Assembly: GCF_002854065.1 (NCBI RefSeq)
Contig: NZ_CP024147.1
Source of the DNA: Escherichia coli
Lineage (GTDB): Bacteria; Pseudomonadota; Gammaproteobacteria; Enterobacterales; Enterobacteriaceae
Direction: 5' to 3' (one strand)
DNA length: 64,000 bases
Shown here: in pieces, positions 59,501 to 61,827 of the stretch
How positions within the stretch are numbered: the stretch's first letter is position 1
How the letters are laid out: every line of letters starts with the position of its first letter
Program-made: the position numbers

Positions 59501-61827
59501 TCAGCCGTTGCCGGTGGGGCGATAGGCCTGTTGTTCGAAAACGTGTTGATGGTGCTGCTCAAGCCCGTTCTGCCTGCTGCACTACCGCCAGCCAGCCTCT
59601 GTCCGTGGCTGTGGGCGCTCGGCACCATGACAGTCATCTCGCTGCTGGTGGGGCTACGACCGTACCGCTTGTTGTTGGCAACGCAGCCTTTACGCGTATT
59701 ACGTAATGATGTGGTAGCGAACGTCTGGCCGCTGAAGTTTTATCTGCCGATTGTCAGTGTGGTGGTTGTGCTGCTGCTCGCCGGATTAATGGGCGGCAGT
59801 ATGCTGCTCTGGGCGGTGCTGGCGGGCGCGGTAGTACTGGCTTTGCTGTGCGGTGTGCTGGGCTGGATGCTGCTGAATGTACTTCGCCGCATGACGCTGA
59901 AATCGCTGCCTCTGCGCCTGGCGGTTAGCCGCCTGTTACGTCAGCCGTGGTCAACGTTAAGCCAGCTTTCGGCATTTTCGCTCTCCTTTATGCTGCTGGC
60001 ACTGCTACTGGTGCTGCGTGGCGATTTGCTCGACCGCTGGCAGCAGCAGCTACCGCCAGAAAGCCCGAACTACTTTTTAATCAACCTCGCCACAGAACAG
60101 GTAGCACCGCTAAAAGCGTTCCTCGCGGAACATCAGATAGTCCCGGAATCGTTTTATCCGATGGTGCGGGCACGGCTGACGGCGATTAACGATAAGCCGA
60201 CAGAAGGTAATGAAGATGAGGCGCTTAACCGCGAACTCAATCTTACCTGGCAAAATACGCGGCCCGATCATAATCCGATTGTCGCCGGTAACTGGCCGCC
60301 AAAAGCCGATGAAGTGTCGATGGAAGAGGGGCTGGCGAAACGCTTAAACGTTGCCCTCGGCGATACTGTGACTTTTATGGGCGATACCCAGGAGTTCCGC
60401 GCTAAAGTGACCAGCCTGCGCAAAGTGGACTGGGAAAGTCTGCGGCCTAATTTCTATTTTATTTTCCCTGAAGGGGCATTAGACGGGCAACCGCAGAGCT
60501 GGCTTACCAGTTTCCGCTGGGAGAATGGCAACGGCATGTTGACGCAACTCAACCGCCAGTTCCCTACCATTAGCCTGTTAGACATTGGCGCGATTTTAAA
60601 ACAGGTCGGTCAGGTGCTGGAGCAGGTAAGTCGGGCGCTGGAGGTGATGGTGGTGCTGGTCACCGCCTGCGGTATGTTGCTGTTGCTGGCACAGGTGCAG
60701 GTGGGAATGCGTCAGCGTCATCAGGAGCTGGTGGTGTGGCGCACACTCGGTGCGGGGAAAAAACTGCTGCGTACCACGTTGTGGTGTGAGTTCGCCATGC
60801 TTGGGTTTGTTTCCGGCCTGGTGGCCGCAATTGGTGCGGAAACGGCACTGGCAGTGTTGCAGGCGAAAGTGTTTGATTTTCCGTGGGAGCCAGACTGGCG
60901 ATTGTGGATTGTTCTGCCGTGCAGCGGTGCGCTGCTGCTGTCGCTTTGCGGCGGCTGGCTGGGCGCACGACTGGTTAAGGGTAAGGCGCTGTTCAGGCAG
61001 TTTGCGGGGTGATGACAGGTGTTAGATTGCCTGATGCGCTACGCTTATCAGGCCTACGAATATCGTGCAATATATTGATTTTGCAAGATTTTGTAGGCCG
61101 GATAAGGCGTTTGCGCCGCATCCGGCAGTTGTGCGGCGGTGCCTGATGCGACGCTGGCGCGTCTTATCATGCCTACAAAACTGCACTCAACCGTAGGCCG
61201 GATAAGGCGTTTACGCCGCATCTGGCATGAACAGTGTGCATTTTGGCAATAAATATGAAACCAACTGTCATGTCGGTTTTTTTAAAGGCCGAAGGTGGTA
61301 AACCTTCGGCCTTAGCGACGTTTCCTCAGTTATTCAATAAACTGACGGATCAGTTCCAGCAGCGCGATTAGCGCCTTAAGAACGATGAGAACTTTATCGA
61401 GAAAAGTTTTCATCCGTTGCTCCCTTAAGGGAGAAAGACAATCACAGCTTACCCTTACGTTGCCTGTAACTATGATTTTCTTCATGTGCTAGATGAGGAC
61501 TGCCTCTCTCCAAATTAGAGCACCAGAATCAGCACCACCTGTATCCTGACCAGGACTTAAAAGTACTTTTCCGCACTGCGGTAATCCCTTGAGGCAGTAT
61601 CACTACTAGCGTCGGGATTGTATCGCCAACATAGCTGTTTGAATATGTAGGCATCCTGACTTATAATTCACTTGCTAGATGAGGACTGTTTCATTTCTGC
61701 CCGGAACCACCAAGTCTTGGGCGGAAAAAATAAAAAAAACGACTGTCATGTCGGTTTTTTTATATCTGTATTCTGGTGCAACCATTCTGTTCTCACGACA
61801 ATCGCCGTTTCAGAATACCGCCCATCA

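What the first reader, a model, noticed from the sequence alone, without database searches (positions are those of the whole stretch)
61230..61770. Candidate type I toxin-antitoxin locus: 27-aa DinQ-like peptide with a divergent short RNA sharing a 16-nt sequence with the toxin 5' region
A minus-strand 27-codon ORF with an SD encodes a single-helix hydrophobic peptide whose core ALIALLELIR resembles my recollection of the SOS-induced toxin DinQ. About 260 bp away a strong sigma70-like promoter drives a ~90-nt plus-strand RNA ending in an intrinsic terminator. Its 5' end (TGCTAGATGAGGACTG, 61673-61688) is an exact direct repeat of 61487-61502, so it would be antisense to the toxin mRNA leader if that mRNA initiates beyond 61502. 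This mirrors the dinQ-agrB and zorO-orzO arrangement, and the terminator motif ACTGTCATGTCGGTTTTTTT is also duplicated (61265-61284 and 61743-61762). The locus is unannotatable by ORF length cutoffs.
Basis: partly seen in the sequence, partly recalled or inferred. Interest (0 to 1): 0.75.

Follow-up and report, generated by a model that had tools for sequence, protein, structure and literature searches.

The report
Second DinQ/AgrB-type toxin–antitoxin cassette
This is a real but already catalogued small toxin gene with its antisense-RNA antidote: an extra, apparently SOS-independent copy of the E. coli DinQ/AgrB system, on a 571-bp cassette found in about a quarter of E. coli genomes.

Summary
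The window is E. coli, between ybbP and mnmH(selU).

- **Toxin.** The 27-codon minus-strand ORF (61413..61330) passes NCBIfam's DinQ cut-off (40.9 bits against 30).
- **Antitoxin RNA.** The plus-strand RNA (61674-61763) passes Rfam's AgrB gathering score (46.4 against 40).
- **Complementarity.** The 16-nt repeat occurs exactly twice in 64 kb (0.02 expected). As RNA, the pairing extends to about 25 bp through G·U wobbles.
- **Family comparison.** In nine family loci, each sRNA pairs best with its own toxin leader (9 of 9 both ways).
- **Regulatory elements.** The K-12 elements are recognisable: the 5' lock, the SD hairpin and elements 1-4.

It is not new. RefSeq already annotates the ORF as "dinQ", 1,314 of 5,426 complete genomes carry the module, and Kristiansen et al. 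2016 defined these dinQ-like (dql) genes.

What I can add:
- It is a discrete 571-bp presence/absence cassette (61241-61811).
- It has no LexA box (best HI 14.8, against 4.35 for K-12 dinQ), so the label "damage-inducible" is unsupported.
- Its exact complementarity is the shortest in the family.
- About 179 carrier genomes lack the toxin-start segment; in the one such allele examined, a 108-bp deletion removed it and kept the sRNA.

No expression or toxicity data exist for this copy.

The parts
61241..61811 (.). 571-bp presence/absence cassette carrying the whole module, inserted between the ybbP-side REP array and the 3' end of mnmH.
   Evidence: Alignment with three 'empty-site' genomes, which read ...GTGCAC|AGAATCC... 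(L003-L005), and two occupied genomes (L006, L007).
61241..61284 (+). Relic copy of the 3' part of an AgrB-like sRNA (terminator hairpin plus T7). It probably serves as a bidirectional terminator for ybbP on the plus strand and as a second hairpin for the toxin mRNA on the minus strand.
   Evidence: 40-nt direct repeat, 80% identical to 61723-61762. It lies inside the cassette and is absent from empty sites. A minus-strand terminator-like hairpin is called at 61279-61258.
61285..61313 (-). Toxin mRNA 3' hairpin (AAGGCCGAAGGT / ACCTTCGGCCTT), homologous in position to the K-12 dinQ terminator.
   Evidence: Perfect 12-bp inverted repeat I5. It aligns with the K-12 terminator.
61330..61413 (-). 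27-aa DinQ-family toxin ORF, MKTFLDKVLIVLKALIALLELIRQFIE, plus stop codon.
   Evidence: NCBIfam toxin_DinQ 40.9 bits, cut-off 30. 79% identity to K-12 DinQ over the core. The ATG aligns with the K-12 GTG start, with the same SD spacing. PGAP annotates the 27-aa form in L006.
61420..61440 (-). SD GGGAG (61424-61420) held in the hairpin CUCCC-UUAA-GGGAG with element 3 (UGUCUUUCUCCC, 61440-61429). This corresponds to the K-12 3:4 SD hairpin.
   Evidence: Palindrome I6. The folds give P(SD unpaired) = 0.011 in the full-length mRNA. The model is from PMC5066626.
61487..61511 (-). Antisense target in the toxin leader. 61487-61502 is exactly complementary to the sRNA 5' end. 61503-61511 pairs through 4 G·U and 4 Watson-Crick pairs with one A×A mismatch. 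This stretch contains element 2 (GGAGAGAGGCAG, 61511-61500).
   Evidence: The cognate duplex is -39.7 kcal/mol and is the best partner in the 9×9 family matrix.
61523..61549 (-). Leader stem-loop SL2 with the family-invariant loop GUGGUG (61539-61533). The loop is complementary to the sRNA stem-loop-1 loop, so a kissing contact is possible (my inference).
   Evidence: Local folds of 9 family loci. SL2 was defined in K-12 by SHAPE (PMC5066626).
61590..61610 (-). Predicted 5' end of the toxin mRNA (GCUAGUAGUGAUACUGCCUC). It pairs with the antisense target (a/a' plus the 1:2 'lock') and resembles the sRNA 5' end.
   Evidence: The minimum-free-energy fold pairs positions 1-20 with 104-123. The GUUAG to GCUAG change is matched by CUAAC to CUAGC in the target and by the sRNA.
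61617..61643 (-). Predicted toxin promoter: -10 TACAAT (61622-61617) and -35 TTCAAA (61643-61638, 15-nt spacer). The inferred start is G at 61610. No LexA box.
   Evidence: Family alignment of the -10 and +1 motifs. The consensus scan did not call it, because the spacer is below 16 nt.
61639..61667 (+). sRNA promoter TTGAAT-17-TATAAT. Its -35 overlaps the toxin -35 back to back.
   Evidence: 10 of 12 matches. Conserved in L006 and L007.
61674..61763 (+). AgrB-family antitoxin sRNA of about 90 nt: single-stranded 5' antisense tail, stem-loop 1 (loop AACCACCAAG), A-rich linker, terminator hairpin plus U7.
   Evidence: Rfam AgrB 46.4 bits, gathering score 40, full-length match to model positions 1-84. 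Fold z = -3.8. Compensatory changes occur in stem-loop 1 across the family.

Best explanation
The region is a chromosomal type I toxin-antitoxin module of the DinQ/AgrB family. More precisely, it is a dinQ-like ('dql') paralogue, not the SOS gene dinQ itself.

**Proposed mechanism.**
1. A sigma-70 promoter (-10 TACAAT, 61622-61617) gives a minus-strand mRNA of about 325 nt, starting near 61610.
2. Its 5' end folds back onto nucleotides ~104-123 of the leader. The SD sits in a CUCCC-UUAA-GGGAG hairpin, so the primary transcript is translationally silent.
3. By analogy with K-12 dinQ (+44), removing about 48 nt from the 5' end would free element 2 to pair with element 3 and open the SD. The 27-aa membrane peptide could then be made.
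4. The constitutive, divergently transcribed ~90-nt sRNA (61674-61763) pairs through its 5' tail with 61487-61511 of the leader: 16 perfect base pairs, extended to about 25 by G·U pairs. This occupies element 2, re-closes the SD hairpin, and creates an RNase III substrate.

**What is shown here:** sequence-family membership of both genes; the repeat and its significance; locus-specific co-variation of sRNA and target across the family; the presence/absence cassette; the absence of a LexA box.

**What is inferred:** the transcript ends, processing, toxicity, and repression by the sRNA.
For: **Family membership**
- NCBIfam toxin_DinQ 40.9 bits against 30.
- Rfam AgrB 46.4 bits against 40, full length.
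- Collinear alignment with K-12 dinQ-agrA across terminator, ORF, SD, leader and target.

**The antisense pair**
- The 16-mer occurs exactly twice, with 0.02 expected.
- The first 45 nt of the sRNA pair with the mRNA at -54.7 kcal/mol, against -28.7 ± 3.3 for shuffles.
- In nine family loci the sRNA 5' end matches its own leader and differs between loci. Most within-pair differences are wobble-compatible (C to T, or A to G, in the sRNA).
- Cognate pairs are the best partner in 9 of 9 rows and 9 of 9 columns; the cognate mean is -45.8 and the non-cognate mean -24.8 kcal/mol.

**Regulatory switch**
- Blocking the 25-nt site drops P(SD unpaired) from 0.20 to 0.011. The K-12 control behaves the same way, 0.245 to 0.018.
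- The full-length fold pairs the 5' end with the target and closes the SD.

**Coding constraint and conservation**
- The window peptide is 81% identical to the Serratia oryzae one. By my hand comparison of the two ORF sequences printed, they differ by 5 synonymous and 4 conservative codon changes.
- The toxin-start/leader segment is at least 99% identical in 1,133 of 1,135 genomes.

**Experimental precedent in relatives**
- DinQ/AgrB in K-12: PMC3567139 and PMC5066626.
- Plasmid DqlB/agrB: toxicity, rescue, and a compensatory-mutation test, PMC12365149.
Against: - I found no transcript, toxicity or rescue data for this locus.
- The toxin promoter is weak by consensus (15-nt spacer) and the scan did not call it.
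- Exact complementarity is 16 nt, against about 30-35 nt in every other family member. The cognate duplex is the weakest of the nine, -39.7 kcal/mol.
- K-12 AgrA, with 25 of 31 complementary positions, does not neutralise dinQ (PMC3567139). Partial complementarity therefore does not guarantee function.
- With only the exact 16 nt blocked, the model does not close the SD (0.203). Translational repression would depend on the wobble extension or on RNase III.
- The folding control is imperfect. For K-12 it does not reproduce the published contrast of closed +1 and open +44 (0.41 against 0.245).
- About 179 of 1,314 carriers lack the toxin-start segment. In the one such allele I examined, L007, a 108-bp deletion removed it. 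The toxin is therefore dispensable.
Confidence: 0.85

Rival explanations
1. The cassette is a decaying, no longer functional relic of a DinQ/AgrB module. The sequence family is right, but the toxin is not expressed or the sRNA no longer controls it.
For: - It has the shortest exact complementarity and the weakest cognate duplex in the family.
- The conserved ...GGCCAGAGC... part of the repeat has diverged in both target and sRNA.
- A truncated sRNA relic lies at 61241-61284.
- About 14% of carriers lack the toxin-start segment; in L007 this is a 108-bp deletion.
- The toxin promoter is of weak consensus.
Against: - The ORF, SD, SD hairpin, elements 1-4, both promoters and both terminators are intact.
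- The differences beyond nucleotide 16 are mostly wobble-compatible rather than random: 8 of 9 positions still pair.
- There is three-way co-variation of the mRNA 5' end, the target and the sRNA (GCUAG/CUAGC).
- The segment is at least 99% identical in 1,133 of 1,135 genomes, though this may partly reflect recent shared ancestry.
Confidence: 0.12
2. The sRNA's selected role is not, or not only, to control its neighbour. It may cross-repress the canonical SOS-inducible dinQ mRNA, or incoming plasmid dql toxins, as an 'anti-addiction' or buffering RNA.
For: - The pairing is asymmetric. The window sRNA pairs with the K-12 dinQ leader at -29.6 to -37.6 kcal/mol, because its G and U residues form wobbles. 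K-12 AgrB pairs with the window leader at only -24.8 to -28.6.
- The sRNA and its promoter are retained intact in the toxin-deleted allele L007.
Against: - The cognate target is still the best partner.
- K-12 AgrA has comparable predicted energy with dinQ (-42.7) yet does not protect (PMC3567139).
- Pairing with plasmid-type leaders is weak, -15 to -23 kcal/mol.
- The toxin deletion may simply be recent.
Confidence: 0.1
3. The product is the 51-aa protein annotated by PGAP (61485..61330), not a 27-aa peptide.
For: PGAP annotates the 51-aa form in the identical genome and in many others.
Against: - No SD precedes the upstream ATG at 61485.
- That ATG lies inside the antisense target.
- The extra 24 residues have no counterpart in the DinQ model, whose match covers residues 29-50 only.
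- The 27-aa start aligns with the experimentally defined K-12 start and SD (PMC3567139).
- PGAP itself aa in L006 and 25 aa in L007 for the same locus.
- Kristiansen et al. note that Dql peptides are often annotated with an over-long N-terminus.
Confidence: 0.03
4. It is a true, LexA-controlled, 'damage-inducible' dinQ orthologue, as its RefSeq name says.
For: The RefSeq product name, and a score above the NCBIfam equivalog cut-off.
Against: - There is no CTG-N10-CAG in 61280-61800. The three one-mismatch hits compare with 2.4 expected by my hand calculation from the core-mismatch probability.
- The best heterology index in the cassette is 14.8, against 4.35 for the K-12 dinQ box, which I left out of the training set.
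- Among the loci scanned, only those at the canonical gor-arsR position have the box.
- The location is different (ybbP-mnmH), and these genomes also carry the canonical dinQ as a second match.
Confidence: 0.03

Closest known systems
DinQ/AgrB (with AgrA) type I toxin-antitoxin locus of E. coli K-12, between gor and arsR (Weel-Sneve et al. 2013, PMC3567139; Kristiansen et al. 2016, PMC5066626)
   Same: - A 27-aa single-helix peptide with the core (I/L)DKxxIVLxALIALLELIR.
- The same SD spacing.
- A divergent sRNA of about 85-90 nt that does not overlap the toxin gene, and whose 5' tail is a direct DNA repeat of a stretch of the toxin leader.
- A 5' lock, SL2, elements 1-4 and an SD hairpin.
- A primary transcript of about 325-330 nt.
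- Both gene models pass their thresholds.
   Different: - The chromosomal site is different (ybbP-mnmH).
- There is no LexA operator.
- There is one full sRNA plus a 44-nt relic, rather than tandem agrA and agrB.
- Exact complementarity is 16 nt (about 25 with wobbles), against 30 of 31.
- The peptide has 3 extra N-terminal residues and is 3 shorter at the C-terminus.
- The specificity nucleotides differ, so K-12 AgrB should not pair well with it: -24.8 against -45.9 kcal/mol for its own target.
dql (dinQ-like) genes, classes dqlA and dqlB, of Enterobacteriaceae chromosomes and plasmids (Kristiansen et al. 2016)
   Same: This is where the locus belongs. It is less similar to dinQ than true orthologues are, but it shares the 5' UTR architecture and the signature residues. 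It co-resides with dinQ in the same genome, and it is often annotated with an over-long N-terminus, all as that paper describes. Its closest peptide among those I retrieved is a chromosomal Serratia oryzae copy, 81% identical.
   Different: I could not see the paper's figure or supplement. Whether this exact ybbP-mnmH copy is among its 14 Dql sequences, and whether it is formally 'DqlA', remains unverified.
Plasmid DqlB/agrB addiction module (pOXA-48; PMC12365149, 2025)
   Same: - The same family and arrangement.
- The mechanism was proven there by toxicity, rescue in trans, and mismatch plus compensatory mutations in the pairing region.
- The C-terminus ELIRQFI(D/E) is shared.
   Different: - DqlB is 31 aa with a different N-terminal half. 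The window peptide fails the DqlB model, 24.5 bits against 35.
- DqlB has 35-nt complementarity.
- DqlB is plasmid-borne with a post-segregational-killing role, whereas the window copy is chromosomal.
ZorO/OrzO, TisB/IstR-1 and ShoB/OhsC (other divergent, trans-type type I systems of E. coli)
   Same: - The same logic: a long, structured 5' UTR, a processed active mRNA, and a divergently encoded sRNA with a short (about 18-21 nt) pairing region.
- A relationship between the zor 5' UTR and plasmid dinQ 5' UTRs has been noted (PMC11264685).
   Different: There is no family match. The OrzO-P model scores 20.7 bits against 60, on the opposite strand. No NCBIfam family other than DinQ and DqlB is hit at E ≤ 10.

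Membership tests
DinQ/AgrB family (broad sense, including dql) | Small hydrophobic peptide matching the DinQ profile | tested here: met
   NF041472 toxin_DinQ 40.9 bits, cut-off 30, E = 1.8e-10. 15 of 19 residues identical to K-12 DinQ.
DinQ/AgrB family (broad sense, including dql) | sRNA matching the AgrB covariance model in sequence and structure | tested here: met
   RF02891 46.4 bits, gathering score 40, model positions 1-84 of 84. Stem-loop 1 and the terminator are predicted. Compensatory pairs occur across the family.
DinQ/AgrB family (broad sense, including dql) | sRNA gene divergent from the toxin gene, 5' of it and not overlapping it; sRNA 5' end complementary (≥15 nt) to the toxin 5' UTR | tested here: met
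   16 nt exact, about 25 with G·U. The target lies 186 nt from the sRNA start, within the family's 181-199 nt. This is the criterion used by T1TAdb.
DinQ/AgrB family (broad sense, including dql) | 5' UTR with four elements able to form the mutually exclusive pairings 1:2, 2:3 and 3:4, where 3:4 is the SD hairpin | tested here: met
   The elements were identified by sequence. The minimum-free-energy folds show 1:2 plus 3:4 in the full-length mRNA and 2:3 in the truncated form. Caveat: the K-12 control only partly reproduces the published behaviour.
DinQ/AgrB family (broad sense, including dql) | Peptide is toxic and membrane-localised; sRNA neutralises it; RNase III cleaves the duplex | not testable with these tools
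   Needs experiments. Shown only for K-12 DinQ/AgrB and for pOXA-48 DqlB/agrB.
dinQ in the strict sense (the 'damage-inducible' orthologue) | LexA operator(s) overlapping the promoter | tested here: not met
   No CTG-N10-CAG. Best HI 14.8, against 4.35 for the K-12 box.
dinQ in the strict sense (the 'damage-inducible' orthologue) | Located between gor and arsR, nearly identical to MG1655 dinQ | tested here: not met
   Located between ybbP and mnmH. About 70% nucleotide identity to the canonical locus, which is present as a second match in the same genomes.
DqlB | Match to the DqlB profile (31-aa peptide) | tested here: not met
   NF041473 24.5 bits against a cut-off of 35. A genuine plasmid DqlB scores 67.6.
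DqlA | Peptide sequence features of the dqlA group (Fig. 3B of Kristiansen et al. 2016) | not testable with these tools
   The figure and supplement are not held. Assigning the locus to dqlA is an inference by exclusion.
ZorO/OrzO | sRNA matching the OrzO-P model; ZorO-type peptide | tested here: not met
   RF02083 20.7 bits against 60, E = 1.5, on the minus strand. No other toxin family was hit.

The most novel reading that the evidence does not exclude
The cassette supplies a LexA-independent DinQ paralogue whose antitoxin is 'wobble-tolerant'. Its G and U substitutions let it pair not only with its own leader but also, one-way, with the canonical SOS-inducible dinQ mRNA. Carriage of the cassette (about a quarter of E. 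coli) would then dampen SOS-induced DinQ toxicity, which would explain why the sRNA is kept in a lineage that has deleted the toxin. A related family-level idea is that an invariant loop-loop ('kissing') contact, between the sRNA loop ACCACC and the leader SL2 loop GGUGGU, nucleates pairing, while the variable 5' tail sets specificity.
Probability: 0.12. Interest if true: 0.5.

Novelty: already known. Interest (0 to 1): 0.2.

Why it matters
The practical value is mostly in annotation.

- **The first-stage reader was right.** Working from raw sequence, it correctly recognised a type I toxin-antitoxin module. That is a useful validation of the scan.
- **The RefSeq name goes beyond the evidence.** The name 'damage-inducible type I toxin DinQ' is applied to this copy through an NCBIfam 'equivalog' model that also captures non-DqlB dql peptides. 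Yet this copy has no LexA box. Its start codon is called inconsistently (51, 27 or 25 aa), and its antitoxin sRNA is not annotated in any of the RefSeq records I viewed.

For toxin-antitoxin biology it is a convenient natural series:
- a chromosomal dql cassette that is present, absent, or toxin-deleted in different E. coli lineages;
- it co-resides with dinQ/agrAB;
- its antisense pairing is the shortest in the family.

That makes it a reasonable system for asking how much complementarity an AgrB-type antitoxin needs, and whether paralogous systems in one cell are insulated from each other. None of this overturns current understanding.

Tried and rejected
- **Species-genome scan.** I searched the 100,000-species genome collection for the 18-mer GATCAGTTCCAGCAGCGC. 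It was too unspecific for 298 Gb. Only L014, L042 and L080 were useful.
- **Full-length duplex folding**. It ignores intramolecular structure and over-extends the duplex, so I used only the 5' 20-45 nt.
- **SD accessibility in full-length against truncated mRNA**. The K-12 control did not reproduce the published closed +1 and open +44 states. I rely only on the contrast between bound and unbound sRNA.
- **LexA regulation: rejected**. My position-weight matrix was built from 24 LexA boxes recalled from memory of the literature. It was checked only against the held-out K-12 dinQ box.
- **The 40-nt repeat as a target-site duplication: rejected.** Both copies lie inside the cassette and the empty sites have neither.
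- **AgrA of K-12 as the lost cognate antitoxin of this cassette: not supported.** AgrA with the window leader gives -18 to -34 kcal/mol, no better than with dinQ.
- **ZorO/OrzO membership: rejected**.
- **Supplements.** Those of PMC5066626 and PMC8594479 are not held. I therefore could not confirm whether this exact locus is listed among the dql genes or in T1TAdb.
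Full report
**What is in the sequence**

The window is E. coli. ybbP ends at 61012 on the plus strand. A REP/BIME array fills 61020-61230. mnmH (selU/ybbB) ends at 61825 on the minus strand, followed by allS.

- a 27-codon minus-strand ORF (61413..61330, MKTFLDKVLIVLKALIALLELIRQFIE), with GGGAG 6 nt upstream of the ATG;
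- a plus-strand promoter TTGAAT-17-TATAAT (61639-61667, 10 of 12 matches);
- a ~90-nt RNA that ends in a hairpin plus U7, fold z = -3.8;
- the 16-mer TGCTAGATGAGGACTG at 61487-61502 and 61673-61688, found nowhere else in 64 kb even with two mismatches allowed (0.02 expected);
- a 40-nt, 80%-identical duplicate of the sRNA terminator at 61245-61284.

**What it is**

The peptide exceeds the curated cut-off of NCBIfam NF041472 'toxin_DinQ' (40.9 bits against 30). It fails the DqlB model (24.5 against 35). It is 79% identical to K-12 DinQ over the core.

The plus-strand RNA is a full-length match to Rfam AgrB (46.4 bits, gathering score 40).

I fetched the K-12 gor-dinQ-agrA-agrB-arsR locus (L002). 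The two loci align collinearly through the terminator, ORF, SD, leader, antisense target and the upstream leader stem-loop. The window's ATG aligns with the experimentally defined GTG start of DinQ, with the same SD spacing.

The OrzO model does not match: 20.7 bits against 60, on the wrong strand.

**It is already known**

- The module is present at 80% coverage or more in 1,314 of 5,426 complete E. coli genomes. In the carrier genomes listed, the canonical dinQ locus appears as a second match.
- RefSeq annotates the ORF as 'dinQ: damage-inducible type I toxin DinQ'.
- The exact 27-aa and 51-aa peptides are in public databases under that name, each on at least 1,000 contigs.
- Kristiansen et al. 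2016 (PMC5066626) defined 'dql' (dinQ-like) genes on enterobacterial chromosomes and plasmids. They noted that some strains carry dql genes together with dinQ, and that Dql peptides are often annotated with an over-long N-terminus.
- T1TAdb predicted the matching AgrB-type RNAs for those loci.
- A plasmid DqlB/agrB pair was validated experimentally in 2025: toxicity, rescue, and compensatory mutations (PMC12365149).

I found no paper in the library on this particular ybbP-mnmH copy. I could not see the 2016 figure or supplement, so I could not check whether it is one of their 14 Dql sequences.

**Evidence from relatives that the antisense pair is functional**

I collected eight further family loci:
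- E. coli WL297 (the same cassette as the window);
- a divergent E. coli carrying the canonical locus;
- the Serratia oryzae and Pantoea stewartii genomes;
- plasmids of Enterobacter, Salmonella (IncX1, and a dqlB plasmid), Erwinia, Citrobacter and Serratia.

The Rfam AgrB model finds one sRNA in each.

In every locus the first ~30 nt of the sRNA are a direct DNA repeat of a stretch of that locus's own toxin leader, 181-199 nt away (234 nt in the dqlB plasmid). The sequence of the repeat differs between loci. Most within-pair differences are C to T, or A to G, in the sRNA, and these keep a G·U pair.

I then built a 9×9 matrix of duplex energies, covering the window, K-12 dinQ/AgrB and seven of the collected loci. 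The cognate partner is the best in 9 of 9 rows and 9 of 9 columns. The cognate mean is -45.8 kcal/mol and the non-cognate mean -24.8. This is the strongest computational support for the mechanism.

The closest peptide I retrieved is the Serratia oryzae chromosomal copy, VKTLIDKVLIVLKALVALLELIRQFID, 81% identical. By my hand comparison of the two ORF sequences, they differ by five synonymous and four conservative changes. That is consistent with purifying selection on the peptide.

**How it most likely works**

The family promoters share the motif '-10, 6-7 nt, G(U/C)UAG'. In the window this is TACAAT (61622-61617) followed by a G at 61610. That gives a ~325-nt mRNA, against ~330 nt for dinQ (PMC3567139).

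- **Silent primary transcript.** The predicted 5' end, GCUAGUAGUGAUACUGCCUC, pairs with nucleotides 104-123 of the leader. This corresponds to the published a/a' and 1:2 'lock'. The SD sits in the hairpin CUCCC-UUAA-GGGAG, with P(SD unpaired) = 0.011.
- **Co-variation.** The U to C change at position 2 of the mRNA is matched by A to G in the target, and again in the sRNA (GCUAG/CUAGC). This three-way co-variation supports both the lock and the inferred start site.
- **Active form.** In a transcript truncated at the position equivalent to K-12 +44, element 2 (GGAGAGAGGCAG) pairs with element 3 (UGUCUUUCUCCC).
- **Repression.** The sRNA tail pairs perfectly with 61487-61502. It then continues for nine more positions with four G·U pairs, four Watson-Crick pairs and one A×A mismatch, covering element 2. 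Blocking this 25-nt site in the model re-closes the SD, 0.20 to 0.011. The K-12 control gives 0.245 to 0.018. Blocking only the exact 16 nt does not close it, 0.203.

Processing, toxicity, RNase III cleavage and repression are inferred from K-12 and pOXA-48. They are not shown here. The folding control did not reproduce the published difference between +1 and +44, so I do not lean on that comparison.

**How it differs from dinQ proper**

- **No LexA operator.** There is no CTG-N10-CAG in 61280-61800, and the three one-mismatch hits compare with 2.4 expected by my hand calculation. With a heterology-index matrix built from 24 remembered LexA boxes, the held-out K-12 dinQ box scores 4.35. The best site in the cassette scores 14.8, a level reached by 12 positions in the whole 64-kb window. 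Among the family loci, only those at the gor-arsR position have the box. The RefSeq label 'damage-inducible' therefore has no sequence support for this copy. It arises because the NCBIfam 'equivalog' model also captures non-DqlB dql peptides, at 41-48 bits.
- **Short complementarity.** The exact complementarity is the shortest in the family, and the cognate duplex is the weakest, -39.7 kcal/mol.
- **A discrete cassette.** Three genomes with a direct ybbP-mnmH junction read ...GTGCAC|AGAATCC.... The window has 571 bp (61241-61811) inserted at that point. Both copies of the 40-nt repeat lie inside the cassette. The left copy is therefore a relic of another sRNA 3' end, not a target-site duplication.
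- **Toxin loss in some carriers.** One allele (L007) has a 108-bp deletion between GATGAGAAC (61384-61392) and GATGAGGAC (61492-61500). It removes the toxin start, the SD and the target, but leaves the sRNA and its promoter intact. Only 1,135 genomes hold 61390-61505, against 1,314 holding the cassette, so about 179 carriers lack that segment. I confirmed the 108-bp deletion itself only in L007.

**Rival explanations**

- *A decaying relic.* Possible, given the short complementarity, the relic fragment and the toxin-less carriers. However, all functional elements are intact, and the divergence beyond nucleotide 16 is wobble-biased rather than random.
- *Cross-regulation of canonical dinQ by this sRNA.* The asymmetric energies suggest it: -29.6 to -37.6 kcal/mol, against -24.8 to -28.6 for the reverse pairing. 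The precedent of K-12 AgrA argues for caution, because AgrA has similar predicted energy yet does not protect.
- *The 51-aa annotated protein.* Unlikely. There is no SD, the start lies inside the target, the extension matches no profile, and PGAP's start calls for this locus are inconsistent.

**Verdict**

This is a correct identification of an ordinary, already catalogued member of the DinQ/AgrB (dql) family. Interest is low. The residual value lies in annotation fixes (an unsupported 'damage-inducible' name, an unannotated sRNA, inconsistent start codons) and in a natural allelic series for studying antitoxin specificity.

Noticed in passing
L080:976-1390 (E. coli SCPM-O-B-8794, canonical gor-arsR dinQ locus): This locus has only one AgrB-family sRNA, and it is AgrA-like (GUUAGAUGAUGACUAUCUC...). 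The dinQ leader there matches that RNA rather than K-12 AgrB; the cognate duplex is -44.9 kcal/mol. K-12's supposedly 'degenerate' AgrA may therefore be the cognate antitoxin of an alternative dinQ allele.
   Followed up: partly
window 61533-61539 (leader SL2 loop) and 61705-61713 (sRNA stem-loop-1 loop); the same positions in 8 other family loci: The loop GUGGUG in the toxin leader and the loop ..ACCACC/ACCAAC.. in the sRNA are complementary. They stay nearly invariant across the family while the stems vary, which suggests a kissing-loop nucleation step. The words 'kissing' and 'loop-loop' do not occur in either dinQ paper.
   Followed up: partly
window 61384-61500; L007:581-658: One allele has a 108-bp deletion between the 9-nt near-repeats GATGAGAAC and GATGAGGAC. 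It removes the toxin start, the SD and the antisense target but keeps the sRNA. About 179 of 1,314 carrier genomes lack that segment. PGAP still calls a 25-aa 'dinQ' in L007.
   Followed up: partly
window 61330-61485; L001, L006, L007: PGAP's start-codon calls for the same locus are inconsistent: 51 aa, 27 aa and 25 aa. No RNA gene is annotated for the AgrB-like sRNA, nor for agrA or agrB in the K-12 TG1 record.
   Followed up: yes
window 61020-61230: A REP/BIME array matches Rfam naRNA4 (79.1 bits) and ES036 (55.3 bits). A ~100-bp REP unit is present or absent among strains at this site.
   Followed up: no
window 61551-61565: The leader contains CTG-N9-CAG (CTGTATCCTGACCAG). At the same position, plasmid dqlB leaders have CTG-N10-CAG, which scores as a weak LexA site: HI 10-12 in my scan and 11.64 in PMC12211044. 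The window's spacer is one base too short.
   Followed up: partly
window 61638-61644: The -35 hexamers of the divergent toxin and sRNA promoters overlap back to back (TTCAAA on the minus strand, TTGAAT on the plus strand). The two promoters may therefore compete for RNA polymerase.
   Followed up: no
window 61674-61700 against the K-12 dinQ leader (L002:1635-1666): Predicted cross-pairing is asymmetric. The window sRNA pairs with the canonical dinQ leader, through G·U wobbles, better than K-12 AgrB pairs with the window leader.
   Followed up: partly
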